64,000 nt of DNA from an uncultured bacterium (GCA_949285665.1 CASDYC010000001.1:5376-69375), one strand, 5' to 3'. Positions 17,254 to 33,658 are shown, numbered from the stretch's first letter. Made by a program: numbers and translations. Notes: generated by a model not told the origin, from the sequence alone.

Positions 17254-18360
17254 TTATACTAACTTATCAATTATGTCTTTATTTATATTTGGAAATAAAT
17301 GAGAATAAGTATCAAGAGTTTGTTGAGTTGAAGCATGTCTTAAGTGCTTTGATACAACTAAAATATTAACACCCTGGTTAATCATACGTGATGCCATTGA
17401 ATGCCGTAAACCGTGTTTTGTAATATGAGGAACTCCGGCAAGTTCAATATGAGCATCCATAACTCTTTTAATTGAAGTTCTTGAAGTGTGCTTAATAAAG
17501 AAAATATAATCATCTGGATTAGGGCAATTTTCTTCCTCATATATTTTTAACTCATCCATTAAGAAAGTTGGAAGTGTGACAGAGTTTGAAGAAGATGAGT
17601 TTTTAGTAGTTGCATCATGCCCATGCTTATCTAATTGGCGTTTAATAGAGATAGTTTTGTTTGCATAGTTTATATCTTTAAATTTAAGACCTAAAAGCTC
17701 TCCAATTCTTAAAGCGCCCCAGTAAGTAACTTCAAAAAGTAGTTTCCATTTTTTCTCATCTTCAGCAAAACTATTAATAAATTTGTTATATTCTTCCACA
17801 GTCCAAAATTGTAATTCTTTTTTAGGCTTTTTAGCTTCTTTAATTGGTTTTAAAAGAAGTTTGATTTTTCCACCCATTTCAAAAGAAAACATATCAAGAC
17901 TACAAGCATAGTCAATTACTGCTCTTAAAATAGCATAACCAAAATTAATCATTTTAGGGCATAAATCAACGCCTTGCATACTGACTTTATATTTATTTAC
18001 ACTTATTATAGATATCGCTTTATCAATAGGCTGTTTGATTTTAAAGTTAGGTTTTATATATTTGTTTATGAATAACTTTTGACTATATGCTGTTCCTTCT
18101 TTATTTGTTAGGTATTTTTCTTTAATATAGTCATTTAAGACATTATCAAGAGAATTTGCAACTCGACCATGGTAGTTTATTATTCTTTTCTTTTTATCTT
18201 CTTCAACAATTTCATCTTCAAGAAGTTTAAGTCTTTTTTTGCCAAACTCCGTAGTCCAGTTTTTATTTCTTATTTTAACTTTGGTAGTAGAACCATCGTA
18301 ATTATTAATATAGTATTGAATATAATATTGTTTTCTTTTTTTATCTAATATAATTGCCAT
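17254..18360 (-). CDS. int: tyrosine integrase (phage integrase family)
   Basis: 368 aa. C-terminal catalytic region HGLRHSMASRM...LRHASTQQTLDTYSHL with the R...HxxR...Y signature, plus ALRIGELLGL. Adjacent to attL. Confidence 0.85.
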   Translation of the reverse strand: MAIILDKKRKQYYIQYYINNYDGSTTKVKIRNKNWTTEFGKKRLKLLEDEIVEEDKKKRIINYHGRVANSLDNVLNDYIKEKYLTNKEGTAYSQKLFINKYIKPNFKIKQPIDKAISIISVNKYKVSMQGVDLCPKMINFGYAILRAVIDYACSLDMFSFEMGGKIKLLLKPIKEAKKPKKELQFWTVEEYNKFINSFAEDEKKWKLLFEVTYWGALRIGELLGLKFKDINYANKTISIKRQLDKHGHDATTKNSSSSNSVTLPTFLMDELKIYEEENCPNPDDYIFFIKHTSRTSIKRVMDAHIELAGVPHITKHGLRHSMASRMINQGVNILVVSKHLRHASTQQTLDTYSHLFPNINKDIIDKLV

Positions 18361-18508: not shown

Positions 18509-18853
18509 TTAACTATCATTAATTATAAAATCATTAATGAATTTACTAATTTTATTCAGTTCTTTTAAATCATCGATTTTTTCAATTAATTTATTAATTT
18601 CTTGTCTTTTTAAAATAACTTCTGAATCAATAATTCGTTCTCTTGTCTTAATACCTAAAATTGTTTCAATAGGCAAATGTAATGCTTGCGACAATAAGTA
18701 TATTGAGCCTCTTTTTATATTATCAATTTCTCCTGTTTCCCATCGTGAAACTGTGCTCTCACTTACATAACACATTTGAGCAACTTCTTTCATTGTTAAT
18801 TTTAATGAAATTCTTCGTTCTCTTAATATTTTTCCAACTTCGTTATTTTTCAT
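18509..18853 (-). CDS. CI-like repressor (HTH_XRE)
   Basis: 114 aa. N-terminal HTH (LTMKEVAQMCYVSESTVSRWETG). Divergent from a Cro-like gene, with operator repeats in between. Confidence 0.7.
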   Translation of the reverse strand: MKNNEVGKILRERRISLKLTMKEVAQMCYVSESTVSRWETGEIDNIKRGSIYLLSQALHLPIETILGIKTRERIIDSEVILKRQEINKLIEKIDDLKELNKISKFINDFIINDS

Positions 18854-18929: not shown

Positions 18930-18998
18930 CTTGCATTTTGATATTTACAACTAAAATTTAAAATGCTTTAATATTAGTAAGAACTTGCAAAATGCAAG
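18930..18998. promoter_or_regulatory. CI/Cro switch region: a half-site plus a full TTGCA-N3-TGCAA operator
   Basis: CTTGCATTTTG at 18930-18940 and the palindromic 15-mer CTTGCAAAATGCAAG at 18984-18998, in the divergent intergenic region. Confidence 0.55.
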
Positions 18999-19013
18999 AG
19001 TTGGGAGGTTAAA

Positions 19014-19235
19014 ATGAACTTTAACAAACAAAAATTTAATGCAACTTTAGCTGAAAATGGAATGACAAAAAAAGATTTATGTAAAATTTTAAATTTAAAT
19101 CAAGCAACTATTTATAGAAAAATAAATAGAAATGGTGATTTTAATAGAAAAGAAATTAATAAACTTGTAGAAATTTTTGGTTTAGAGAAAACAGAATCCT
19201 TTTTATTTGATGAAAACTTGCAAAATGCAAGATAA
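19014..19235 (+). CDS. Cro-like small HTH regulator
   Basis: 73 aa. HTH MTKKDLCKILNLNQATIYRKI. GGGAGG RBS. Confidence 0.55.
   Translation: MNFNKQKFNATLAENGMTKKDLCKILNLNQATIYRKINRNGDFNRKEINKLVEIFGLEKTESFLFDENLQNAR
19217..19231. promoter_or_regulatory. third operator copy (identical 15-mer) at the 3' end of the cro-like gene
   Basis: CTTGCAAAATGCAAG is identical to 18984-18998 and lies 233 bp downstream of it. Confidence 0.45.
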
Positions 19236-19240
19236 AACTT

Positions 19241-19516
19241 ATGACCATACACACACGCATAGAATTACTTCTTAAAAAATCTTATGAAACAAAAGACATC
19301 ATGATTTTAGAAGATTGCTCTTATTCAACAGCTAATCGTATTAAAAAAGTATGTAGGAAGTGTTTTGATGGATTAATTAAAGGTGAAGTAAATAGAAACA
19401 GAATTAAAGCAGAGAGTTATTGGAAGTATTTAGGAACAAGCTCTGAAGAAGAACTTATGAAAATTAAAAAGTTATTAAAGGAGAAAGATTATGAGGACTT
19501 ACTTGAAAGAAAATGA
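19241..19516 (+). CDS. hypothetical early protein
   Basis: 91-aa ORF in the co-directional early operon. Confidence 0.35.
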   Translation: MTIHTRIELLLKKSYETKDIMILEDCSYSTANRIKKVCRKCFDGLIKGEVNRNRIKAESYWKYLGTSSEEELMKIKKLLKEKDYEDLLERK

Positions 19517-25709: not shown

Positions 25710-26414
25710 ATGGACAAAAGATTTAATTTTATTCATTCAAACGCTAGAAAGATTTGGTATATAAATGGCCAAAAATTTGAAAGTGATAAAGGAAGTAATA
25801 ATGGCAAACAAAAAGCCATTACATACGCACGTGAGCATTTACTGGATGAAAAAGACATTAAGAAATTTGATAGTCTTATGGAATTTAATCGTTATTTATT
25901 TTTAAAATCCAGGGAAGAAAAGGGAGAGATTAGTTATTTTAAAGATCATTTTGTTTTTCCGCTTTTAAAAGCATTTAAAAACGCAGATGGAATAGAGCAT
26001 GATGAATTACTTTATGAAGCTGATTTTTACTATTATGACAAAGTTTTAAAGAAGTTTATCGTAGAAGATGTTAAAGGTAATTTAGAGGATGTTTTTAGAG
26101 TTAAATGGAAGATATTTGATTTAATATACCTAAAAAGAAATTTAGCAATTAAATGCGTGCGCATGCGTGCACGTAAAGATCCATTAGATTCTGATAGTTG
26201 GTATTATTTTAATGAATTTGAAAAGCCTCAAAAAAATGTGGAAAAGTTAAGAGAAAAAAATAAGAAGTTAGAAAGTGAATTAAAGAAACTTGAAGCAGAG
26301 AAAAAGAAAGAAATGCGTGAGCGTGCACGCATGAAGGAACTTAAAAACAAAGAAAAACTAACAAGCTCTGAAAAGAAAAGATTAGAGGAATTAAAAAAGA
26401 AATATGAAAGTTAA
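25710..26414 (+). CDS. hypothetical protein with a C-terminal K/E-rich coiled coil
   Basis: 234-aa ORF. Contains the first alternating GC-rich tracts (KCVRMRARK, MRERARMKE). Confidence 0.35.
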   Translation: MDKRFNFIHSNARKIWYINGQKFESDKGSNNGKQKAITYAREHLLDEKDIKKFDSLMEFNRYLFLKSREEKGEISYFKDHFVFPLLKAFKNADGIEHDELLYEADFYYYDKVLKKFIVEDVKGNLEDVFRVKWKIFDLIYLKRNLAIKCVRMRARKDPLDSDSWYYFNEFEKPQKNVEKLREKNKKLESELKKLEAEKKKEMRERARMKELKNKEKLTSSEKKRLEELKKKYES

Positions 26415-27198
26415 AGAATATGTTGAAAAAAATAAACTAACAACTTTGTATTTAATTGAGGATGATTATTTAGATATATTATCATCAAAGGACATTTATG
26501 ATGCATATAAAGAGAGAGAAATTACACGTTTTAGGACATATGGAGATTGTGGAATTGCAATAAGTTGTTTAAAAACTTATGATAAAATTACTAATATGTC
26601 ATATGTTTTAATGTATAAAAATAAAGATGGAATTGTTGCAGTTGGAGATAAAGCAGTAGCTAGAGTATTAAATTATGAACCTTATAAATACGAAGTTTTA
26701 AATTTAGATGCTGTTAAAGTGATGAATAATAAAAAGTTTGTAATAGGAATACTAGGAACTGGTGTAATTGATTATAAAAATAAATGCGCCTATATATCAG
26801 AGTTAGTAAATAAATTAATTAAAAAATGTAAAAGTGTTAAGTTATTTATTAAATCTTTTAATGCAATTTATAAAAAAGCATGTCTTCCAAAATGTGTTGA
26901 AAGTGTGGAATATCGTTTTTTTATAGCAGATAAAAACTTGATGTATGATGTTAGATTTAAAGATTTAAAATGCACGATCTATACAAAAGAAGAAGGGCTT
27001 TTATGTAATGTTCCAAGTTGTTATCAAGATGTAGATGTTTTTGAATTTGATCCTCTTTATATTATTTCAAGAAAATTTCAATATGCAATCGCACGCACGC
27101 ATGAGAAACAAAAATTAGAATTTGATAATACATTTTGTGTTAGTAAAGAAAGTGACTGCATTATTTTGAGGTTTGAAGGTGAAAAGTATGAAAGTTAA
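26404..27198 (+). CDS. hypothetical protein, paralog A (internal HslV/Ntn-hydrolase-like segment)
   Basis: Shares MSY(V/I)L...KDGIVAVGDK, FV(I/V)G(I/F)(L/V)GT and ...THE(K/N)QK...NTF(C/S)VSKESD blocks with the next ORF. Confidence 0.4.
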   Translation: MKVKEYVEKNKLTTLYLIEDDYLDILSSKDIYDAYKEREITRFRTYGDCGIAISCLKTYDKITNMSYVLMYKNKDGIVAVGDKAVARVLNYEPYKYEVLNLDAVKVMNNKKFVIGILGTGVIDYKNKCAYISELVNKLIKKCKSVKLFIKSFNAIYKKACLPKCVESVEYRFFIADKNLMYDVRFKDLKCTIYTKEEGLLCNVPSCYQDVDVFEFDPLYIISRKFQYAIARTHEKQKLEFDNTFCVSKESDCIILRFEGEKYES

Positions 27199-28006
27199 AG
27201 AAATAGTTGAAGAATGTAAATCAATGAAGGCTGAAGTATTTTTAATAGAAGGCAATATTGACGTTTTAAAAAATAAAAAATTGTATGAAAGAATAAAAAA
27301 TAAAGAAATTTTATATATAGATGCCGATATTCTTTATGATAATAAATTTTACATAAGCATTTCTTATGACTATGGTAAAATGTATAAAATGTCTTATATT
27401 TTAATTAAAAGAACGAAAGATGGTATTGTTGCAGTTGGTGATAAGGTGATGTCTTGTGTATCAAGTTTTTACCCGTTAAGAAGATATAAAACACTTTCAT
27501 TAGATGCTACTAAGGTTTTTAAAAATGAATATTTTGTAGTTGGTTTTGTAGGAACTGCTTTTGTTGATATTGACAACAAAGATATAAGTATTGAAGACGT
27601 CATTAAAAAATTATTAAAAGAGATAATAACAATTAAAGATTTTGTTGAAGAATTTAAAAAAATTTATAACAATATGAAGAGGTTTATCTATTTCAAAAAT
27701 GTTGAATATTCATTTTATTTAGTTGACAAAAATAGTGCGTGTGTATATGAGTTTAAACAACAAAAAAGCGATGAAAACACAAAGGCTATTGAAGATGGTT
27801 TTTTATTTAATACACCACTTTATCGTGAAGAACCAAAAATTAATGATACTGACAATTTAGAAGAAGTTGCTGAAAAGTTTAAAAACGCAATCTCACATAC
27901 ACATGAAAACCAAAAAAGAGAATTAGGGAATACTTTTAGTGTAAGTAAAGAATCTGATGTTGTAATTTTAAAGTTTAAAGGAGAAAAAAATGATAAAACA
28001 AATTAA
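27173..28006 (+). CDS. hypothetical protein, paralog B (internal HslV/Ntn-hydrolase-like segment)
   Basis: Tandem paralog of 26404-27198 (MSYILIKRTKDGIVAVGDK, KVFKNEYFVVGFVGTAFVD). Confidence 0.4.
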   Translation: MKVKSMKVKEIVEECKSMKAEVFLIEGNIDVLKNKKLYERIKNKEILYIDADILYDNKFYISISYDYGKMYKMSYILIKRTKDGIVAVGDKVMSCVSSFYPLRRYKTLSLDATKVFKNEYFVVGFVGTAFVDIDNKDISIEDVIKKLLKEIITIKDFVEEFKKIYNNMKRFIYFKNVEYSFYLVDKNSACVYEFKQQKSDENTKAIEDGFLFNTPLYREEPKINDTDNLEEVAEKFKNAISHTHENQKRELGNTFSVSKESDVVILKFKGEKNDKTN

Positions 28007-28763
28007 AGATTTAAGTTTTAATGAAGATGAAGTTAAGGTCAATGATTATATTAACTTGATTTTAGATGGCGAAAATAAGGGCATTTATGAGCTTAAAAAC
28101 CTAATGAGAGAACGCCCTGGGTTATATGTCAAAGAAATAATAAATTATTACAATGAACTAACTAAATGTTATGTTTCAAGTCTCATACATGCGTGCGTAA
28201 GCACATGTGAGTTTAACGGTGTTAAAAAAGAAGTAATTGTTAAAGAAATTTATAAACAAGTTAAGGATTTAACAAAAGATGATGTTAGATCTGATTCAAT
28301 TTATGTTGTGGTTTTTGATAATTTAAAAAATAGACAAATAAAAGACTTGTATATGTTTAAAAGTATTGATGAATTAAAAGAGATTAACAAATTGTATGTT
28401 TATAGCATTATGAATTATCAATACGATGAAGAAAAAGTTATTTCTTCTAGTATTGTTGCTAGTATTGATAAAACGCCATATCATGAAATATCAAAAGAGG
28501 AAGCTTTTGTTTTAGAAGTTAAAGAGTTATTAAAAAAAGCTATTGGACAAGGCTATAAAGAAATAATTAAACCAGAGTATTCATATTACTTTAACGATTT
28601 AGGAATGTATTTTATAATATCTGACATGTTAAACTCAATTGTTGGTGGTATTAAAGATACCGATAGAAAACTTATTTTAAACGATTTTAAAAGTAAAGAG
28701 TTTTATGAAATTAGAACGTTTATAAATCAAGTTGTTGATGAAATATTCTCGCTTTATGCGTGA
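27990..28763 (+). CDS. hypothetical protein
   Basis: 257-aa ORF. Confidence 0.3.
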   Translation: MIKQIKDLSFNEDEVKVNDYINLILDGENKGIYELKNLMRERPGLYVKEIINYYNELTKCYVSSLIHACVSTCEFNGVKKEVIVKEIYKQVKDLTKDDVRSDSIYVVVFDNLKNRQIKDLYMFKSIDELKEINKLYVYSIMNYQYDEEKVISSSIVASIDKTPYHEISKEEAFVLEVKELLKKAIGQGYKEIIKPEYSYYFNDLGMYFIISDMLNSIVGGIKDTDRKLILNDFKSKEFYEIRTFINQVVDEIFSLYA

Positions 28764-28783
28764 GTAGGTAGGCACACACGTAT

Positions 28784-29053
28784 ATGCGTATGCACGTATG
28801 TAAGACTGTTAGTCTTGTTGTATTGTTAATAGTTGGCATTGTTGGTTTAGTATTAACTTTTGTCATACCTTACAAAGACTTAATTTATTTAACTTTTTCA
28901 TGTTCGTTTTTTGGATTTATAGTTTATCTTTCTACTTTAACTGATAAATTAAAATACAATGAAAAATTAATCGTTAGTTTATTTATATGCCACATAATTT
29001 TTGTAATTTTGTCTATTGTGTTAATCTTACTTTTAGAAAATGGCGTTATTTAA
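28784..29053 (+). CDS. small membrane protein
   Basis: 89 aa, 3 TM helices. The start lies within a 31-nt perfectly alternating Pu/Py tract. Confidence 0.35.
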   Translation: MRMHVCKTVSLVVLLIVGIVGLVLTFVIPYKDLIYLTFSCSFFGFIVYLSTLTDKLKYNEKLIVSLFICHIIFVILSIVLILLLENGVI

Positions 29054-29159
29054 AACAGAAACAGGCTAAAATTAAACAAAATAAAAAAAGTAGTATGATT
29101 TATCTACTTTTCTAAAACGCTTGAAATTACCCCGTTTATTTAATTATTTTCAATGTATT

Positions 29160-29190
29160 AAAAAAGCACTCAACTAAGAGTGCTTTTTCT
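29160..29190. terminator. bidirectional intrinsic terminator between convergent operons
   Basis: A-run, then GCACTC aactaa GAGTGC, then T5. A second hairpin lies at about 29090-29115. Confidence 0.6.
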
Positions 29191-29322
29191 AATTATTGTT
29201 TTTCATAATGCATTACTTGATTATTTATAATTACATATATTTCTTTTTGTTTTATAAATATTTTAAGTAAATACAAAGTATAAGTAATTGAATATTTATG
29301 ATGTAATAATTTTTTAAGTAAT

Positions 29323-29994
29323 TTATAAGTTGTCATATGCTTGATCCATTTCTTTAAAGTTAAATAATTTAGTATTTAACATAACTGGTTGTTGTAAGTA
29401 ATTTAAGTTTGAATAATAGCAACCGCCAACTTTATAAAACTTGTTAATTAGTGATACGTAACCATCTTTTGTCATAATTGCTAACTTGTTATATTCGCCA
29501 ATTAAGTTTTTTATTAGTTGCATTTTGTTATATCGTTTATCAAAGTATAAATCATTACCGATAATCAAAGACAAGTAATCTTTAATAAAAGTCATTGTAT
29601 CGTTATAATTTACTTTTTGATTATAGCTACTTGTTAAATGAATGATTCCATTATGAGCTATTCCAATATTAGCCGTTGTTTTTAACTCACGCATACGTGC
29701 GTAATCGCTACAAAGTGGGTATGGATGGCACAACTCTTTTTTTGTTCCGCCCTGGGTTGATATTCTAAAGTGTAAGACAAGTGGTATTTCTTTAATTTTT
29801 AAGTTGTTATCACTTAATAACTTTTTAATATCTTTAAGTAAATCATCTAGCTTATCAAATCCCTTGTGGATGATTACTTGATTATTTACTGGGGCCATAT
29901 AGCCGGCCCCATCCCCGTTTCTTTCAATACATTTTTTTAATGTTTCAATACTTGGTAAATCTTGGTTTACTGGTTTATAGATAATTACACACAT
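29323..29994 (-). CDS. class-II glutamine amidotransferase-like Ntn hydrolase (YafJ/GATase_4-like)
   Basis: Starts MCVIIY, the Cys2 N-terminal nucleophile typical of GAT-II. 223 aa. Translationally coupled to the upstream amidoligase-like gene (ATG/TAA overlap at 29994). Confidence 0.55.
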   Translation of the reverse strand: MCVIIYKPVNQDLPSIETLKKCIERNGDGAGYMAPVNNQVIIHKGFDKLDDLLKDIKKLLSDNNLKIKEIPLVLHFRISTQGGTKKELCHPYPLCSDYARMRELKTTANIGIAHNGIIHLTSSYNQKVNYNDTMTFIKDYLSLIIGNDLYFDKRYNKMQLIKNLIGEYNKLAIMTKDGYVSLINKFYKVGGCYYSNLNYLQQPVMLNTKLFNFKEMDQAYDNL

Positions 29995-31244
29995 TATAAT
30001 TGTTCCCCTTCCTTTTCGCTTGCGTATGTGCGCATGAATAAGCCTTGTTTTCTAAAATAATTAATTACTTTTAAATCTACATTTTTAAGCATTTTTGATA
30101 AGCAATAAATCTTGTTAAATGGCACATTTTTAAGATTTTCAGCAATACCAGCGAATAAAAGAAAGCAGTTTTTCATCCATTGAGCATCTGCAACGCTTCT
30201 AAATATTCTTATTTCAAAAGTTGCTTTTGAGTTAATTAAACAACGATTGTGGTCTGAGTTTAAATAATCGGTTGCATTACAAGATAAATCAAGTCTTTTT
30301 ATTGCTTCGTGGTAGTCTTTAATTTCATCGTATGTATAAAACTTACAATAACGCATTGAGTTTTCATCTCTTTTTGAAAGTTTTATAAAGTCTTCCTTGT
30401 ATATAGTCATAAAGTAAGCAAGTTTTAAAAAGTTTATCGCTTGTTCTTTTGAGTTATCACCAAAGACAAGTTTTGATATGTGTAAATGAATACCAGCGCT
30501 TTTAACGTTGTCATCATGACCGGTTTTTTTCATAAAATCAGCGATGATATTAAAATCTAATTGCTCTAAATATTTTCTTGAAAATACTTGACTAATCATC
30601 TCAAAGCCATAAGTTAAAGAGCCATCCATTTCAAATTTAAAATGTGTTTTTCTAGTTTTTCCATTTAAGTTATAAAAATCATCGGTTACTCTTGCATAAT
30701 AGCGGTTGTCTTTTCTAACTCTTAAACGGCTATTGTTAAAATTATCGATTTCAATTTCAAAGCCGTAGCCCTTAAAGTTGCTTTCATCCATTGTCTCGTT
30801 GTCTAGTTTAAAATATCTAACCTTGCTATCTCTTGCATCATTGCCCCAACCGTTATAATCAGAGTGATAACCGTTAATTACATACAAGTTTTTATATTCT
30901 TGTTCAAAGCAAGTATTGCAATATCTTGTGTCATTGCCCATGTAATGAGATTGAGTTTGTAAGTCTTGTGGTGCAATCCATTTTCCGCATTTATCACATT
31001 TTCTAAAACCAATATCACGCATTGCACGCTCAAGCGTGTCTATATTATCGCTTGCGTATATAAGCGTTTCAGTCTCTAATGTAAGTCTTTCATGTTGGTT
31101 TGTGTAAGTAGTAGTATCTAAATCAATAACTATTGTGTTGCTATTAACAAATAAGCTTATTAATGCTTCTTGGTCGCTTGTTACTAATTGAGCAACGTAT
31201 GATGCGTAAGTTTTTTTAATAGTAATAACATTGTATTTTTTCAT
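29994..31244 (-). CDS. amidoligase-like protein (PF12224-like GS-fold) with an N-terminal Cys4 zinc ribbon
   Basis: Motifs GYGFEIEI (E.E strand), DGSLTYGFE (DGS) and SAGIHLHIS (GxHxH), recalled from the putative-amidoligase family. CDKCGKW...CNTCF zinc ribbon. AAGGGGA RBS. Confidence 0.45.
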   Translation of the reverse strand: MKKYNVITIKKTYASYVAQLVTSDQEALISLFVNSNTIVIDLDTTTYTNQHERLTLETETLIYASDNIDTLERAMRDIGFRKCDKCGKWIAPQDLQTQSHYMGNDTRYCNTCFEQEYKNLYVINGYHSDYNGWGNDARDSKVRYFKLDNETMDESNFKGYGFEIEIDNFNNSRLRVRKDNRYYARVTDDFYNLNGKTRKTHFKFEMDGSLTYGFEMISQVFSRKYLEQLDFNIIADFMKKTGHDDNVKSAGIHLHISKLVFGDNSKEQAINFLKLAYFMTIYKEDFIKLSKRDENSMRYCKFYTYDEIKDYHEAIKRLDLSCNATDYLNSDHNRCLINSKATFEIRIFRSVADAQWMKNCFLLFAGIAENLKNVPFNKIYCLSKMLKNVDLKVINYFRKQGLFMRTYASEKEGEQL

Positions 31245-31371
31245 AGTATTTTATTTTCCCCTTAATTTTCTGCTCATTTTGCTTTATAATTAAGAGTGCA
31301 AAAGGGCTTAAAAACTCTTGTGTAATCGCTTGTTTTTTCTAGTTTGCCGACTTGTTAAACGGGCGATTTTT

Positions 31372-31554
31372 TTATTGCTTATTGACGTCACCTTCGATTA
31401 ATTTAGCCAAATAAGCACTTTTTGATGGTTGACTTTCAATTTTATCTATTAAGTGTTGTTGTGTATCTTTTCTAAGCATTAATCGATAATATTTATAAGT
31501 CTTTTTCTTGTATTTATAATTGCTTTTATTATCTTTTCTTGGCGTTGTTTTCAC
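31372..31554 (-). CDS. small basic ribbon-helix-helix-like protein (paralog 1 of 3), GTG start
   Basis: KTYKYYRLMLRKD (beta strand), TQQHLIDKIES (helix) and SKSAYLAKLIEGD (helix) follow the Arc/MetJ/CopG pattern. Preceded by GGAAGGGGG. Directly upstream of the amidoligase gene. Confidence 0.4.
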   Translation of the reverse strand: MKTTPRKDNKSNYKYKKKTYKYYRLMLRKDTQQHLIDKIESQPSKSAYLAKLIEGDVNKQ

Positions 31555-31584
31555 CCCCTTCCTTAAGTTGTAGGGCTTCCGCCC

Positions 31585-31680
31585 TTGACTTATACGTTTT
31601 AGTTTCTTATAATAATTGTGAACTTGGTAATCCAGAGATTAATTGTGATTCTAAACTCATAATTAACTCTGGTTTTTTTA
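31585..31680 (+). promoter_or_regulatory. promoter-like site plus intrinsic terminator mini transcription unit (unit 1), antisense to the minus-strand operon
   Basis: TTGACT, a 17-nt spacer and TATAAT at 31585-31613. CCAGAG...CTCTGG hairpin at 31632-31672 followed by T7. Confidence 0.4.
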
Positions 31681-31776
31681 TTTTTCTTTACCTTAAGTCT
31701 CACATTTATAATTAAACGCTTTCGTCAAGGGTTGCCCTATTAGTAAGTAAGTCATATTTAACAACCCCTTACACGT

Positions 31777-31822
31777 ATGTATGCAAGCGTGTTTCCTTGC
31801 TTGCAATAATAATTTAACATAG
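31777..31822. repeat. conserved hairpin block (copy 1): TGCAAGC gtgtttcctt GCTTGCA plus AATAATAATTTAACAT
   Basis: 33 nt identical to 32278-32310. A diverged third copy lies at about 32793-32835. Confidence 0.5.
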
Positions 31823-31856
31823 GCGTTCACCTAATGCAACATATATTTTTATTTTT

Positions 31857-32035
31857 TTATTGTTGCATGTCTTTTTTGATTAAGTTTACTAGATAATCAT
31901 TTTTGCTTTTTTGTTTTTCTATTTTCTCTATTAAGTCTTTTTGATTATCGATTCTTAATCTTAGAGTGTAAGATTTATAAGTCTTTTTGTTGTATCGATT
32001 TTGTCTTATCGTTGATTTTTTGGCGATATTTTCAC
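31857..32035 (-). pseudogene. RHH-like paralog 2; apparent frameshift at an A6 tract near the 5' end
   Basis: The GTG frame gives VKISPKNQR-stop. The +1 frame continues KKSTIRQNRYNKKTYKSYTLRLRIDNQKDLIEKIEKQKSKNDYLVNLIKKDMQQ, which is homologous to paralog 1. One extra A would restore the frame. Confidence 0.3.
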
Positions 32036-32045
32036 CCCCTTCCTA

Positions 32046-32119
32046 TTGATTTTTAAAACTCTCACTGCTATAATGATGCTGAGATATTTGAGATGACTAA
32101 TGTTTAGTCATCTTTTTTT
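32046..32119 (+). promoter_or_regulatory. promoter-like site plus intrinsic terminator mini transcription unit (unit 2)
   Basis: TTGATT, a 17-nt spacer and TATAAT at 32046-32074. 9-bp hairpin AGATGACTA/TAGTCATCT at 32091-32113 followed by T7. Confidence 0.4.
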
Positions 32120-32277
32120 ATCTCATGGATTAATAAAATTAACAAGATTAATGTAATAATTAAATCCATATAATTTATTAACCTTTCTACTATTAAGCAT
32201 TAAACCGGTGTAAGTTTTTTAAGTATGTTTAATAGCAGTGAGAGAAACTTTACACTTTATTAATGTAATAGTCTCAT

Positions 32278-32323
32278 GCGTATGCAAGCGTGTTTCCTTG
32301 CTTGCAATAATAGTTTAGCATAA
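32278..32323. repeat. conserved hairpin block (copy 2)
   Basis: GTATGCAAGCGTGTTTCCTTGCTTGCAATAATA is identical to copy 1. Confidence 0.5.
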
Positions 32324-32396
32324 TGAAACATTATTGCAATACCTTTTTTAAAAATATTTTAATTTTTATTTTTTATTACTGAAGTAATAAGATTTT

Positions 32397-32567
32397 TTAT
32401 TTTTTTAAATCGTTTTGAATTAGCGATAAAATATAAGCGTTTTTTGATTTAACACTTTCTAATTTTTCTATTATATCGCTCTGGGTATCTTTTCTAACTT
32501 GTAATAAATAACGCTTGTATGTCTTTTTTTTATATTTATTACTTGCGATTGTTTGCCTTGTTCCCAT
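32397..32567 (-). CDS. small basic RHH-like protein (paralog 3), ATG start with AAGGGGGA RBS
   Basis: 56 aa: MGTRQTIASNKYKKKTYKRYLLQVRKDTQSDIIEKLESVKSKNAYILSLIQNDLKK. Below the 60-aa cutoff of the ORF track. Same beta-alpha-alpha pattern as the other two. Confidence 0.4.
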   Translation of the reverse strand: MGTRQTIASNKYKKKTYKRYLLQVRKDTQSDIIEKLESVKSKNAYILSLIQNDLKK

Positions 32568-32583
32568 GATTTTATATTCCCCC

Positions 32584-32662
32584 TTGACAAAATAAAAACC
32601 CGTGCCATATAATATTAATGAAAGATTTAGATATTAGAGTTTAGTCATCTAATATCTTTTTT
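32584..32662 (+). promoter_or_regulatory. promoter-like site plus intrinsic terminator mini transcription unit (unit 3)
   Basis: TTGACA, an 18-nt spacer and TATAAT at 32584-32613. GATATTAG/CTAATATC hairpin at 32630-32656 followed by T6. The loop shares GTTTAGTCATCT with unit 2. Confidence 0.4.
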
Positions 32663-32935
32663 ATTTCAATTAATATCTTACGTATTAGAATTAAAAGTAA
32701 AATCTTTTTCATTCTAACGCATCCCCCTTTCTAGTTTTAATCCTAGCTCAAGATTACTAACTAGCGGTTGCCTTATGATGCTATGACACGGGTGCAAGTA
32801 AGCTTTTTCCTTACATGCATTAATAGTATGACATAAGTATATACACATTACAATATATTTTTAATTATTTTTTTATTTTTTTATGCGTGTTTGCGTATGC
32901 TTTCGCGTGCGTGTGTGCGTATGCGTGATTATGTA

Positions 32936-33020
32936 TATATTCTTTTAGATTTATATTATTCTTTCAGATTTATATTATTCTTTGAGATTTATATATATTC
33001 TTTCATATTTATATTTTTAT
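32936..33020. repeat. four tandem ~20-bp iterons (tattctttNagatttata-like)
   Basis: attcttttagatttat / attctttcagatttat / attctttgagatttat / attctttcatatttat in a non-coding stretch. Confidence 0.5.
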
Positions 33021-33316
33021 ATTGTATTTTCTATATCTATTTTTCTTTTTATTTATATGGCAATTTCAAAAATCTTAATTTTTAAAGATGAAAAAGATTA
33101 GAATAAAAAAAGATAATTTGATTAGATTATAAAAGAGGCGATTATTAATTTTTCTATATCATATATCACAATCAAGGTGTTTGATTTTCTTATTTCTTTT
33201 CATCCATCCAGAGCGTTAAAAATTGGCTTAAAATCTTATATTTTTATGTGGTGTCTTTTTCTTGTATTGCTCACATATCTATAAAACACCGATAAAACCG
33301 ATATTTTATAAAGTTT

Positions 33317-33340
33317 GGGGGTTAATTTGGGGGTTAATTT
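33317..33340. repeat. 2x GGGGGTTAATTT, related to the att-site GGGGGTTATTT triplets
   Basis: gggggttaatttgggggttaattt. The same G5TTA(A)TTT motif occurs 3 times in attL, 3 times in attR and once at 61089-61100. Confidence 0.5.
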
Positions 33341-33416
33341 TAGATGATTTATTGGATGTTGCTTCCTCTGGAAGCAAAACAACAACAAAAAAATTTTTAA
33401 ATTTTCTATATATTGG

Positions 33417-33453
33417 AACCCCCACCCGGAAGGCAAATTCACCCCGGGGCGGC
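33417..33453. other. GC-rich palindromic island upstream of the terminase genes (candidate cos/pac region)
   Basis: aacccccacccggaaggcaaattcaccccggggcggc in otherwise about 20%-GC DNA, including the CCCCGGGG palindrome. Preceded by the GCTTCC tct GGAAGC hairpin at 33361-33375. Confidence 0.3.
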
Positions 33454-33658
33454 TAAAATGCAATTATTGTTCTTTTTAAAATTTTCCTTATTTTTTCCTA
33501 TTTTTTTAAATTTTATTATTTTTTTTATATTTTTTTAATGTAAACTTTTCTTGCATTTTTGTCAATAAATGTTGATATTTGTAAACTTTTATGTTTAAAA
33601 TGCAACATTTTATTTACTTTTTGCAAGTCATAATAAAAACTTGCTATTTTTAGTATAC

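What the first reader, a model, noticed from the sequence alone, without database searches (positions are those of the whole stretch)
25821..32929. Cluster of GC-rich alternating purine/pyrimidine (Z-DNA-prone) tracts sharing a CATGCGTG/CACGCATG core
At least 11 perfectly or nearly alternating Pu/Py tracts of 13-31 nt occur in about 7 kb of roughly 27%-GC DNA:
- 25821-25833
- 26153-26175 (ATGCGTGCGCATGCGTGCACGTA, 23 nt perfect)
- 26313-26333
- 27090-27103
- 28187-28209
- 28772-28802 (GCACACACGTATATGCGTATGCACGTATGTA, 31 nt perfect)
- 29688-29703
- 30022-30036
- 31771-31785
- 32275-32286
- 32905-32929
The core heptamer ATGCGTG/CACGCAT is expected about 0.2 times by chance in 7 kb but is seen at least 8 times. 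It is rare elsewhere in the window. The tracts fall in coding and non-coding DNA alike, where they encode R/M/H/C-rich peptides. Possible roles are Z-DNA or recombination hotspots, a recognition motif for a phage-encoded protein, or the trace of a GC-richer donor.
Basis: seen in the sequence. Interest (0 to 1): 0.6.

Follow-up and report, generated by a model that had tools for sequence, protein, structure and literature searches.

The report
Selected ATGCGT-type tracts in prophage early genes
A prophage of a very AT-rich gut or rumen bacterium carries about 15 short GC-rich purine/pyrimidine-alternating tracts built on ATGCGT/ACGCAT in its non-structural half. Related phages have them too, and they are kept by selection on the DNA rather than on the proteins, but what reads them is unknown.

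Summary
Of the 19 purine/pyrimidine (RY) runs of at least 12 nt in the window, 15 lie in 25.82-32.93 kb. ATGCGTR occurs 19 times against 5 expected, 14 of them in this stretch.

The window is a prophage of a 26%-GC Bacilli host. The cluster fills the distal early operon, a minus-strand accessory module and the region upstream of the small terminase gene (terS).

Five further related phage lineages show the same pattern. Together they have 61 GC-rich RY tracts in 81 kb of non-structural DNA (4 expected), 3 in 58 kb of structural genes, and 0 in 17 kb of host DNA.

The signal is at the DNA level:
- Resampling codons while keeping the proteins gives 1.6 tracts where 9 are seen.
- Lineages gain tracts through clustered substitutions, including non-conservative ones (E to T or M) and Arg CGY codons where AGA is the norm.
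- The tracts are imperfect (ACGCAT)n arrays with no strand polarity.

Tested and not supported: a conserved protein motif, a GC-rich donor, Chi-like polarity, mosaic junctions, promoters at fixed spacing, and hairpins.

My best guess, at low confidence, is that these are multi-copy sites for an unidentified DNA-binding factor. Z-DNA formation is possible on paper (|sigma| of 0.041 or more) and is the main rival.

The parts
19246..19261 (.). Outlying RY tract CATACACACACGCATA at the start of the first early ORF after the cro-like gene. It is the only tract in the proximal early region.
25820..25833 (.). RY tract TACATACGCACGTG in the DUF1064 gene, encoding the peptide TYAREH. This position carries a tract in all seven lineages compared. 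L138 and L141 extend it by changing E to T or M.
26153..26175 (.). 23-nt perfect RY tract ATGCGTGCGCATGCGTGCACGTA in the DUF1064 gene, encoding CVRMRAR with every Arg as CGY.
26313..26333 (.). ATGCGTG-N7-CACGCAT inverted pair in the DUF1064 gene (MRERARM). It is specific to the window/L005 lineage; L007 has LKEKARL there, with AAA and CTA codons. It is the only tract with significant hairpin potential.
27090..27103 (.). RY tract CGCACGCACGCATG near the 3' end of ORF 26404-27198 (peptide ARTHE).
27735..27749 (.). RY tract GTGCGTGTGTATATG in the paralogous ORF 27188-28006. It is absent at the homologous site in L005, with 6 differences in 15 nt.
27894..27905 (.). AT-richer RY tract CACATACACATG, at the position paralogous to 27090-27103 (peptide SHTHE).
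28184..28209 (.). RY tract CATACATGCGTGCGTA plus an imperfect extension, in ORF 27990-28763 (peptide IHACVSTC).
28756..28802 (.). Array at the end of the early operon: ATGCGTG, then a gap, then a 31-nt perfect RY run. It spans the stop codon of ORF 27990-28763 and the start of a small membrane ORF.
29688..29703 (.). RY tract CACGCATACGTGCGTA in the minus-strand class-II amidotransferase-like gene. It is identical in L005.
30021..30036 (.). RY tract TGCGTATGTGCGCATG at the 3' end of the amidoligase gene (FMRTYAS). L007 keeps the alternation with H (CAT) in place of R (CGC). L005 breaks it with CGA.
31016..31040 (.). Imperfect tract CACGCATTGCACGCTCAAGCGTGTC in the amidoligase gene. It holds core copies in both orientations.
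31770..31797 (.). RY tract and GCAAGCGTG in the 5' leader of small-ORF unit 1, part of the 43-nt repeat.
32275..32292 (.). RY tract CATGCGTATGCA and AGCGTG in the 5' leader of small-ORF unit 2, in the second copy of the 43-nt repeat.
32883..32929 (.). The largest non-coding array, with 5 TGCGT cores spaced 8, 16, 8 and 6 nt apart. It lies upstream of the unit-3 promoter, next to a 19-nt direct-repeat array (32934-33015). Equivalent arrays sit upstream of terS in L007, L010, L138 and L141, and their length is hypervariable.

Best explanation
The tracts are a dispersed cis-element that acts on double-stranded DNA. Each tract is an imperfect short tandem array of the hexamer ATGCGT/ACGCAT (RTGCGTR). 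Because the unit has an even length and alternates, the array alternates purine and pyrimidine automatically.

Shown:
- The element has been selected at the DNA level in the non-structural half of a family of temperate phages of very AT-rich Bacilli. This half comprises the early operon, the minus-strand accessory module and the region upstream of terS.
- In coding DNA it is written using rare RY-compatible codons (Arg CGY, Thr ACG, Ala GCR, His CAY, Met ATG), and sometimes by changing the amino acid.
- It is 2.2 times denser in non-coding DNA, where it forms arrays of up to 135 nt.

Inferred:
- The tracts are multi-copy arrays of sub-sites for a sequence-reading DNA-binding factor that does not depend on orientation. 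The factor is probably phage-encoded and was not identified.
- Longer arrays would bind it more strongly or cooperatively.
- Binding would mark, organise or co-regulate the non-structural half of the genome.
- Z-DNA proneness is a real property of the sequences on paper. It may contribute to the mechanism or be a side effect.
For: Context:
- The window is a prophage: integrase, cI/cro-like genes, RecE/RecT, DUF1064, an amidoligase plus amidotransferase pair, terS and the large terminase gene (TerL).

Recurrence:
- Five further lineages (L007, L010, L138, L141, L142), with proteins 40-70% identical to the window's, show the same pattern. The close relative L005, about 90% identical in DNA, shows it too.
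- Pooled over the window and those five lineages, there are 61 GC-rich RY runs in 81 kb of non-structural DNA (4.0 expected), 3 in 58 kb of late genes (1.9 expected) and 0 in 17 kb of host DNA.

DNA-level selection:
- With the proteins kept and codons resampled, 1.57 runs are expected (maximum 5 in 500 trials) where 9 are seen. Control genes show 5 against 2.9 expected.
- In DUF1064 the Arg codons are CGY at the tract sites, although AGA makes up 79% of Arg codons genome-wide.
- GAG (E) becomes ACG (T) in L138 and ATG (M) in L141, which extends the tract.
- K/L positions become R (CGT) and M (ATG) in the window's lineage only.
- L005 gained ACGCATACGCAT in the amidoligase gene through about 6 clustered changes, including the synonymous ACT to ACG. 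The outgroups have no tract there.

Sequence specificity beyond alternation:
- Within the tracts, TGCGT/ACGCA occurs 73 times against 38.5 +/- 4.9 expected, and TACGCA/TGCGTA 52 times against 17.8 +/- 4.0. The null model keeps the alternation, the base composition and the avoidance of GTAC, GCGC and CGCG.
- The four commonest shared 8-mers are all frames of (ACGCAT)n. TGCGTATG occurs 26 times in early regions and 0 times in late regions, and is present in all six lineages.
- RY runs of only 7-11 nt that contain the core are also enriched, 56 against 6.

Growth with length:
- Enrichment rises with run length, from about 1x at 6-8 nt to 8x at 12 nt or more.

Strand symmetry:
- Orientation relative to transcription is 18 sense to 15 antisense.
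- The tracts show no consistent strand bias in base composition (G+T against A+C).
Against: - No binding protein was found. The small basic proteins that co-occur with the clusters and lie next to the largest arrays have no Pfam match. AlphaFold predicts two helices for the monomer, and that model has no match among solved structures.
- A position matrix centred on TGCGT shows only RY phasing out to +/-12 nt. There are no further specified bases and no fixed site width.
- Some tracts lack the core altogether, for example CACATACACATG and GTATACATACGTGCATA.
- Spacing between cores is 6, 8, 10 or 16 nt rather than a single period.
- About 70% of the tracts lie inside genes, which is unusual for regulatory sites.
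- Co-occurrence of the clusters with any particular gene is confounded by shared ancestry.
- Individual tracts turn over at roughly the rate expected without selection between the window and L005.
Confidence: 0.35

Rival explanations
1. The selected property is the non-B DNA structure. Under this reading the tracts are Z-DNA-forming elements. They flip under the negative supercoiling generated by transcription, for example between the divergent terS and small-ORF promoters. There they would act as supercoil sinks or switches for the early half of an extremely AT-rich genome. The ATGCGT core would simply be the best CpG-containing RY word that remains once GCGC, CGCG and GTAC are excluded by restriction avoidance.
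For: - RY phasing is the only feature that extends beyond the core, out to +/-12 nt.
- Enrichment rises steeply with uninterrupted run length.
- A B-Z model gives 11 segments that flip at |sigma| < 0.05, against 0.5 in Markov simulations. Nine of the 11 are in the cluster.
- Amino-acid changes go to any RY-compatible codon (ACG or ATG), not to one particular word.
- The tracts are strand-symmetric.
- Simple dinucleotide repeats are under-used (identity at lag 2 is 0.456 against 0.50) and palindromic tetramers are under-used, as expected for stable sequences that do not slip or form cruciforms.
- GTAC, GCGC and CGCG are avoided genome-wide.
- The largest array lies between divergent transcription units. 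From my own knowledge, Rahmouni and Wells (1989) showed Z-DNA forming in vivo in that kind of position.
Against: - The predicted thresholds (|sigma| 0.041-0.050 in a 5-kb domain) exceed the usual unconstrained superhelicity. Most tracts are only 12-16 bp. The dinucleotide energies were taken from memory of Ho et al. 1986.
- TpA steps, which are poor Z-formers, make up 29% of the pyrimidine-purine steps in the tracts.
- After allowing for palindrome avoidance, the core words are still 2-3 times over-represented within the RY tracts.
- The core is enriched even in 7-11-nt runs, which are too short to form Z-DNA.
- No Z-alpha-like protein was found.
Confidence: 0.2
2. The tracts are selfish or mutational sequence. 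Under this reading an (ACGCAT)n microsatellite-like element spreads and turns over by slippage, template switching or RecT-mediated patch conversion. It would accumulate where constraint is weakest, in non-coding DNA and fast-evolving early genes, and would have no function for the phage.
For: - Array length is hypervariable between phages that are about 85% identical, with a 60-nt indel.
- A tract was gained through a burst of clustered substitutions.
- Tracts are 2.2 times denser in non-coding DNA.
- They occupy no fixed positions, apart from those in DUF1064.
- The phages where the region is visible encode RecT.
- Retention of tracts between the window and L005 is close to the neutral expectation.
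Against: - Gains inside genes are substitutions that preserve length, not insertions.
- They include non-conservative amino-acid changes at sites that are otherwise conserved.
- The two DUF1064 positions have kept tracts across lineages only 55-70% identical.
- Simple-repeat character is avoided, not favoured.
- Late genes replicate and recombine in the same molecule, yet show 3 tracts against 1.9 expected.
Confidence: 0.12
3. The tracts are preferred sites for a type II topoisomerase (gyrase or topoisomerase IV). They would maintain the supercoiling of the early region, in the way the strong gyrase site of phage Mu does.
For: - From my own knowledge only: gyrase and eukaryotic topoisomerase II cleave preferentially at TG steps in alternating RY sequence, and phage Mu carries a selected strong gyrase site.
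- The tracts are strand-symmetric and restricted to one region.
Against: - This was not testable here.
- Strong gyrase sites need about 130 bp of phased flanking DNA, and no conserved flanking signal exists.
- There are about 15 sites per genome rather than one.
Confidence: 0.07
4. The tracts are Chi-like or recombinase-loading hotspots that protect the DNA end next to the packaging site from AddAB/RecBCD, or direct recombination there.
For: - The cluster abuts the terS-proximal end of the genome.
- GCGTG resembles part of the Lactococcus Chi sequence GCGCGTG (from my own knowledge).
- TGCGT shows a 34:17 strand bias within 4 kb of terS when five lineages are pooled.
Against: - The bias disappears beyond 4 kb (30:28).
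- The terS-proximal array is GT-rich on the plus strand in the window and L007 but AC-rich in L138 and L141.
- The motif is not enriched in the 17 kb of host DNA: 0 tracts, and 3 ATGCGTR, one of them inside a tRNA gene.
- Tracts are not associated with homology-block boundaries.
Confidence: 0.04
5. The tracts are ordinary signals or coding artefacts. The candidates are conserved codons of a protein motif, promoters or activator boxes, terminators or RNA hairpins, and remnants of a GC-richer donor.
For: - Two DUF1064 tracts and the amidoligase C-terminal tract sit at conserved peptides.
- Six of the eight terminator-like hits in the region are RY tracts.
Against: - Codon resampling argues against conserved codons.
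- Tracts lie at non-homologous positions in orthologues, and amino acids change to fit the alternation.
- There are non-coding arrays.
- No -10 or other element lies at a fixed distance from the tracts.
- Only 1 of 7 tracts folds better than shuffled versions.
- Orientation is unrelated to transcription.
- Rfam has no real match.
Confidence: 0.04

Closest known systems
Dispersed parS/centromere-like sites (ParB-parS of Bacillus subtilis; the scattered centromere sites of prophage N15). From my own knowledge.
   Same: Both are multiple copies of a short GC-containing DNA site, independent of orientation, confined to one region of a replicon. Most copies lie inside coding sequences, and what appears to matter is their number in the region rather than their exact position.
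   Different: parS is a defined 16-bp palindrome of fixed width, with a cognate ParB encoded nearby. Here the sites are tandem hexamer-type arrays of variable length (12-135 nt), no ParA or ParB was seen, and the phage integrates through a tyrosine integrase.
Arrays of short sub-sites bound by small repressors (omega heptads of pSM19035, ParG tetramer boxes, MetJ met-boxes). From my own knowledge.
   Same: In both, arrays of 4-8-bp units vary in number and orientation, arrays differ in length between loci, and small basic proteins are encoded next to the largest arrays.
   Different: The small proteins here could not be shown to have a ribbon-helix-helix fold. The spacing between units is not constant. 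Most copies lie inside genes rather than at promoters.
Z-DNA-forming alternating purine/pyrimidine sequences, (CG)n and (CA/TG)n. From my own knowledge.
   Same: These are perfect RY alternation of 12-36 bp rich in CpG and TpG/CpA steps, with a predicted B-Z transition under negative supercoiling.
   Different: They are not simple dinucleotide repeats. They have a preferred hexamer word. Most are short and need |sigma| above 0.04. No function for Z-DNA in a phage is known, and no Z-DNA-binding protein was found.
Over-represented genomic words under selection for their number (Chi, uptake sequences USS/DUS, KOPS). From my own knowledge.
   Same: In both, a short word is enriched many-fold, written into coding sequence through codon choice, with individual copies turning over.
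   Different: Those words are genome-wide in the host and, for Chi and KOPS, strongly polar. This word is absent from the adjacent host DNA, restricted to half of the prophage, and not polar.
T4 MotA boxes and the promoter-stem-loop cassettes (PeSLs) of T4-type phages. From my own knowledge.
   Same: Both are a short conserved motif repeated many times through the early or non-structural region of a phage, often within the 3' ends of upstream genes.
   Different: No promoter element lies at a fixed distance from the tracts. Orientation is unrelated to transcription. Tracts are not associated with mosaic junctions.

Membership tests
Z-DNA-forming sequence | Uninterrupted purine/pyrimidine alternation of about 12 bp or more, rich in CG and CA/TG steps | tested here: met
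   15 runs of 12-31 nt in 25.8-32.9 kb, mostly 38-71% GC (one AT-rich run at 25%). Pyrimidine-purine steps in the tracts: CG 25%, CA/TG 46%, TA 29%.
Z-DNA-forming sequence | B-to-Z transition at physiological negative superhelicity | tested here: inconclusive
   A simple thermodynamic model, with energies recalled from Ho et al. 1986, gives thresholds of sigma -0.041 to -0.050 for 11 segments. That is above the typical unconstrained level but within reach behind a transcribing polymerase.
Z-DNA-forming sequence | Adoption of the left-handed form in vitro or in vivo | not testable with these tools
   Needs two-dimensional gels, chemical probing, or Z-alpha/antibody binding.
Conserved codons of a protein family | The DNA motif is explained by a conserved peptide and normal codon usage | tested here: not met
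   9 runs are seen against 1.57 expected when the proteins are kept and codons resampled. Tracts lie at non-homologous positions in L010. E changes to T or M, K to R (CGT), and ACT to ACG, each creating or extending a tract. Non-coding arrays exist.
Chi-like recombination hotspot | Strand polarity relative to the DNA end or to replication | tested here: not met
   Of the tracts within 4 kb of terS, 8 are GT-rich and 6 AC-rich. The terS-proximal arrays have opposite polarity in the window/L007 and in L138/L141.
Chi-like recombination hotspot | Over-representation in the host chromosome | tested here: not met
   0 GC-rich RY tracts in 17.2 kb of host DNA. 3 ATGCGTR there, one of them in a tRNA gene. 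Only 17 kb of host DNA was available.
Mosaic-junction linker / PeSL-like shuffling cassette | Location at the boundaries of homology blocks between related phages | tested here: not met
   In six pairwise comparisons, 0-2 tracts lie within 60 nt of a boundary against 1.2-2.9 expected (P 0.71-1.0).
Promoter or activator box | A fixed distance to a -10 element and orientation with transcription | tested here: not met
   No positional signal within 60 nt on either side of 70 tracts. Orientation is 18 sense to 15 antisense.
Hairpin, cruciform or intrinsic terminator | Self-complementarity beyond what composition gives | tested here: not met
   Only 1 of 7 tracts has a z-score below -2. Palindromic tetramers are under-represented, 163 against 236 +/- 11. 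The dominant (ACGCAT)n direct repeats are not self-complementary. The summed folding energy is modestly lower than the RY-permuted null (-190 against -159 +/- 10), so a minor contribution cannot be excluded.
Microsatellite or simple tandem repeat | Head-to-tail copies of one unit, detectable as a tandem array | tested here: inconclusive
   Tandem Repeats Finder reports only the 32882-32927 array (period 14, 66% matches). Within tracts, identity is slightly raised at lags of 4, 6 and 8 nt and lowered at 2 nt. The top 8-mers are frames of (ACGCAT)n.
Operator array of a ribbon-helix-helix repressor | A cognate ribbon-helix-helix protein encoded nearby | tested here: not met
   The small basic ORFs co-occur with the clusters. 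They have no Pfam match and no sequence match to solved structures. The AlphaFold monomer model is two helices, with no Foldseek match. A dimer model was not run.

The most novel reading that the evidence does not exclude
The tracts could be a previously undescribed class of phage cis-element. Purine/pyrimidine-alternating (ATGCGT)n tracts would be driven into the non-structural half of the genome by positive selection strong enough to override amino-acid conservation. They would work through a left-handed or otherwise non-B conformation, possibly read by a dedicated structure-specific protein. That would make them the first naturally selected Z-DNA-type elements with a function in a bacteriophage.
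Probability: 0.15. Interest if true: 0.85.

Novelty: new variant of a known kind. Interest (0 to 1): 0.55.

Why it matters
If the tracts are binding sites, they define a new dispersed cis-element, and by implication an unknown factor. That factor would distinguish the early or accessory half of a temperate phage genome from its structural half, in a poorly known group of phages of uncultured AT-rich Bacilli.

If they work through DNA structure, they would be rare evidence that Z-DNA-prone sequence is positively selected in a prokaryotic virus.

In either case they are a clean example of selection on DNA overriding codon usage, and even amino-acid identity, in several genes at once. They are also easy to test, because synonymous recoding of a few hundred bases would remove them.

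For annotation, they are a recognisable marker of this phage family.

Tried and rejected
Searches that found nothing useful:
- Near and distant BLAST of the region and of an array against 50,697 phage records gave no match.
- The closest TerL in cultured phages is at most 27% identical.
- Scanning viral contigs for ACGCAYACGCAYACGCA returned over 100 unrelated contigs with microsatellite-like repeats.
- A DUF1064 profile found nothing in JGI metagenome contigs.
- The amidoligase profile found one genome locus, a rumen Bacilli MAG (metagenome-assembled genome) at 37% GC, with no cluster.
- The viral-contig relatives at 38-41% GC (L013-L018) show no enrichment either.
- Rfam gave only tRNAs at gathering thresholds. 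At permissive thresholds the only match was mir-297, which I take to be a chance match to the TG/CA-rich RY sequence.
- Four literature searches found no description of such tracts in phages.

Ideas tested and dropped:
- Conserved codons.
- A GC-richer donor.
- Chi-like polarity.
- Mosaic-junction linkers.
- Promoter boxes.
- Hairpins or terminators.
- Lineage-specific core variants. The preference seen in three lineages was not significant across six, P = 0.24 and 0.08.
- Enrichment at the 3' ends of genes. It was 12 of 25 in the first three lineages but 19 of 52 against 28% expected, P = 0.12, in six.

Attempts to find a binding protein:
- My guess that the small basic proteins are ribbon-helix-helix repressors was not confirmed.
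- Pfam, PHROGs, NCBIfam and PDB sequence searches of the unknown ORFs in the cluster gave nothing informative.

Full report
**1. The observation**

Of the 19 perfectly alternating purine/pyrimidine (RY) runs of at least 12 nt in the 64-kb window, 15 lie between 25,820 and 32,927.

The heptamer ATGCGTG/CACGCAT occurs 14 times, 11 of them in that stretch. ATGCGTR occurs 19 times against 5.0 +/- 2.3 in dinucleotide-preserving shuffles, and 14 of the 19 are in the stretch. GCGTG occurs 14 of 18 times inside it. A first-order Markov model of the non-structural part of the prophage predicts 0.4 GC-rich runs where 13 are seen.

**2. Context**

The window is not uniform phage DNA.
- Positions 1 to about 17.2 kb look like host DNA: the anaerobic ribonucleotide reductase gene nrdD and five tRNA genes.
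- A prophage follows: integrase (17254-18360, minus strand), a cI-like and a cro-like gene with the palindrome CTTGCAAAATGCAAG, RecE- and RecT-like genes, and a DUF1064 protein resembling a Holliday-junction resolvase (25710-26414).
- Next come two paralogous ORFs (26404-28006) and a bidirectional terminator (29161-29188).
- A minus-strand module holds an Ntn-type amidotransferase-like gene and an Amidoligase_2 gene (29323-31244) and three tandem units of about 500 bp, each with a small basic ORF.
- Then come the small and large terminase genes, terS (33677) and TerL (34041), and the structural genes.

The cluster therefore covers the distal early operon, the accessory module and the region upstream of terS. 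The closest cultured phage has a TerL at most 27% identical. One relative lies in a rumen Bacilli MAG (metagenome-assembled genome).

**3. The pattern recurs in related phages**

Homologues of the amidoligase and of DUF1064 led to contigs from independent metagenomes.

L005 is about 90% identical in DNA to the window. Five more distant lineages (L007, L010, L138, L141, L142; 29-36% GC; proteins 40-70% identical) show the same thing. Pooled over the window and these five lineages:
- 61 GC-rich RY runs in 81 kb of non-structural DNA, where 4.0 are expected.
- 3 in 58 kb of structural genes, where 1.9 are expected.
- 0 in 17 kb of host DNA.

More distant relatives at 37-41% GC (L001-L003, L012-L018) show no clear enrichment. 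Some carry one or two tracts upstream of terS.

The largest arrays are non-coding and variable in length:
- Window 32883-32929.
- L138 14839-14887.
- L142 12396-12530, about 135 nt.
- A 60-nt indel separates L138 from L141.

**4. The signal is in the DNA, not the protein**

- Keeping the six protein sequences and resampling codons from the window's own usage gives 1.57 runs of at least 12 nt (maximum 5 in 500 trials), against 9 observed. The other 56 ORFs show 5 against 2.9.
- AGA makes up 79% of Arg codons genome-wide, but the Arg codons in the tracts are CGY.
- In DUF1064, YAREH (TAC GCA CGT GAG CAT) becomes YARTHM (ACG) in L138 and YARMHM (ATG) in L141. These non-conservative changes turn a GAG that breaks the alternation into a codon that extends it.
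- The third DUF1064 tract (MRERARM) exists only in the window/L005 lineage. L007 has LKEKARL there, with AAA and CTA codons.
- L010 carries tracts at positions not homologous to those of the other lineages.
- In the amidoligase, L005 has AGC ACG CAT ACG CAT where the window has caa act caa tct cat and the outgroups have no tract. That is about six clustered changes in sequences that are 90% identical, including the synonymous ACT to ACG.

A GC-richer donor is excluded for the same reasons.

**5. What the tracts are made of**

The dominant hexamers and the top shared 8-, 9- and 10-mers are all frames of (ACGCAT)n/(ATGCGT)n. TGCGTATG occurs 26 times in the early regions of all six lineages and never in their late regions.

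These phages avoid GTAC almost completely: 0 against 20-35 expected in four lineages. GATC, AGCT and GGCC are depleted in every lineage, and GCGC and CGCG in some. This narrows the choice of CpG-containing RY words.

A null model that keeps the alternation, the composition and that avoidance still leaves two words over-represented:
- TGCGT/ACGCA, 73 against 38.5 +/- 4.9.
- TACGCA/TGCGTA, 52 against 17.8 +/- 4.0.

RY runs of 7-11 nt that contain the core are also enriched, 56 against 6.

On the other hand, a matrix centred on TGCGT shows only RY phasing out to +/-12 nt, with no other specified base. Enrichment also rises steeply with run length, from 1x to 8x. Both a preferred word and the alternation itself therefore seem to matter.

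**6. Properties that constrain the mechanism**

- Orientation is unrelated to transcription: 18 sense to 15 antisense.
- There is no consistent polarity relative to terS. The 2:1 TGCGT bias within 4 kb does not persist further out. The terS-proximal arrays have opposite polarity in different lineages.
- Tracts are 2.2 times denser in non-coding DNA (P = 3e-4), yet 70% are intragenic. An apparent excess at the 3' ends of genes did not hold up in the larger set.
- No conserved element flanks the tracts at a fixed distance.
- Only one of seven tracts folds better than shuffled versions, and palindromic tetramers are under-used.
- Tracts are no closer to homology-block boundaries than chance.
- A simple B-Z model, using dinucleotide energies from my memory of Ho et al. 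1986, predicts transitions at sigma -0.041 to -0.050 for 11 segments, 9 of them in the cluster, against 0.5 segments in simulations.

**7. Interpretation**

What is shown is a strand-symmetric element in double-stranded DNA. It is under recurrent positive selection in the non-structural half of a phage family, and it is built from ATGCGT-type units.

What reads it is inferred. I favour multi-copy arrays of sub-sites for an unidentified DNA-binding factor (confidence 0.35), for three reasons:
- The word preference persists within RY sequence and in runs too short for Z-DNA.
- Most tracts would need unusually high superhelicity to flip.
- Enrichment that grows with array length fits cooperative binding to arrays.

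The nearest analogies are dispersed parS sites and arrays of repressor sub-sites. These come from my own knowledge and are not membership claims.

The main rival is selection for the Z-prone structure itself (0.20). It explains the long-range RY phasing, the length dependence and the acceptance of any RY-compatible codon. A selfish, microsatellite-like origin (0.12) explains the hypervariable arrays and the turnover. It does not explain the length-preserving non-conservative gains inside genes, or the sparing of the late genes. Topoisomerase sites (0.07) could not be tested. Chi-like, promoter, hairpin, conserved-codon and donor explanations were tested and are not supported.

**8. Candidate reader proteins**

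Small basic ORFs of 55-69 aa co-occur with the clusters and lie next to the largest arrays. I guessed from their sequence pattern that they are ribbon-helix-helix proteins. That was not confirmed:
- No Pfam match.
- No sequence match to solved structures.
- AlphaFold predicts two helices for the monomer, with mean pLDDT 83.
- That model has no Foldseek match.

The co-occurrence is also confounded by shared ancestry.

**9. Novelty and verdict**

I found no description of such tracts in phages. I file this as a new variant of a known kind, namely a dispersed short DNA word whose number is under selection. Its reader and function are unknown.

Interest is moderate to high. The evidence for selection is unusually clear and the element is easy to test. 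The mechanism remains a low-confidence inference.

Noticed in passing
window 31300-32900 (minus-strand ORFs 31375-31554, 31863-32027, 32400-32567; plus-strand promoters 31585-31613, 32046-32074, 32584-32613; plus-strand terminators about 31633-31690, 32090-32121, 32628-32672): There are three tandem units of about 500 bp. Each has a minus-strand promoter, a 5' hairpin leader and a small basic ORF. On the opposite strand each has a near-consensus promoter (one is TTGACA-18-TATAAT, 12 of 12) followed 45-65 nt later by an intrinsic terminator. These are candidate antisense small RNAs against the leaders. The layout recalls the arc/ant/sar arrangement of P22 immI, or plasmid copy control (from my own knowledge).
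   Followed up: partly
window 32027 and 31554; L007 9698; L010 9683: The small basic ORFs seem to start at non-ATG codons placed 5-8 nt after a strong Shine-Dalgarno sequence: ATC in window unit 2 and in L007, ATA or GTG in L010, GTG in window unit 1. Only unit 3 uses ATG.
   Followed up: partly
whole window and loci L007, L010, L138, L141, L142: GTAC is avoided to an extreme degree: 0 against 20-35 expected in four lineages, and 17 against 73 in the window. GATC, AGCT and GGCC are depleted in every lineage, and GCGC and CGCG in some. This points to heavy restriction pressure in the hosts, and it shapes which RY words the tracts can use.
   Followed up: yes
window 32934-33460; L007 8700-9210: The region upstream of terS has a conserved order of elements: the RY array, pyrimidine-rich direct repeats (19 nt, 4.3 copies, at 32934-33015), an AT-rich stretch, TTTGGGGGTTAA in 2.2 copies (33314-33340), and a GC-rich block at about 33405-33455. 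It could be a packaging (cos/pac) site or a replication origin.
   Followed up: partly
window 18986-19000 and 19217-19231: The palindrome CTTGCAAAATGCAAG flanks a 73-aa cro-like gene (19015-19236), next to the cI-like gene (18509-18853, minus strand). These are probably the immunity operators. TTGCAA-type words also lie next to several RY arrays, for example four copies after the L142 array.
   Followed up: no
window 29323-31244 (minus strand): An Amidoligase_2 gene is paired with a gene whose product begins MC..., like a class-II (Ntn) glutamine amidotransferase. The pair is conserved in relatives, with a bidirectional terminator downstream in the window. It looks like a moron (an accessory prophage gene cassette) of unknown product.
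   Followed up: partly
window 26404-27198 and 27188-28006: A tandem duplication has produced two paralogous ORFs of unknown function, with DNA blocks about 73% identical. L005 has a single copy. Both paralogues carry an RY tract at the same position, GC-rich (ARTHE) in one and AT-richer (SHTHE) in the other.
   Followed up: partly
L013-L018, just downstream of the amidoligase gene (for example L015 11067-11082): An AT-rich RY tract, ACATATATATGTGTAT, is conserved at the same intergenic position in the relatives at 38-41% GC, which otherwise show no RY enrichment.
   Followed up: no
window 32283; locus L004: An independent Logan assembly of the same phage (100% identical over 13.5 kb) breaks exactly at the second copy of the 43-nt repeat. 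The tandem units evidently cause assembly breaks.
   Followed up: no
window 32879-32947: At a permissive threshold Rfam matches mir-297 here (E = 0.27, 25.8 bits against a gathering score of 90). I take this to be a chance match to TG/CA-rich RY sequence, not an RNA gene.
   Followed up: yes
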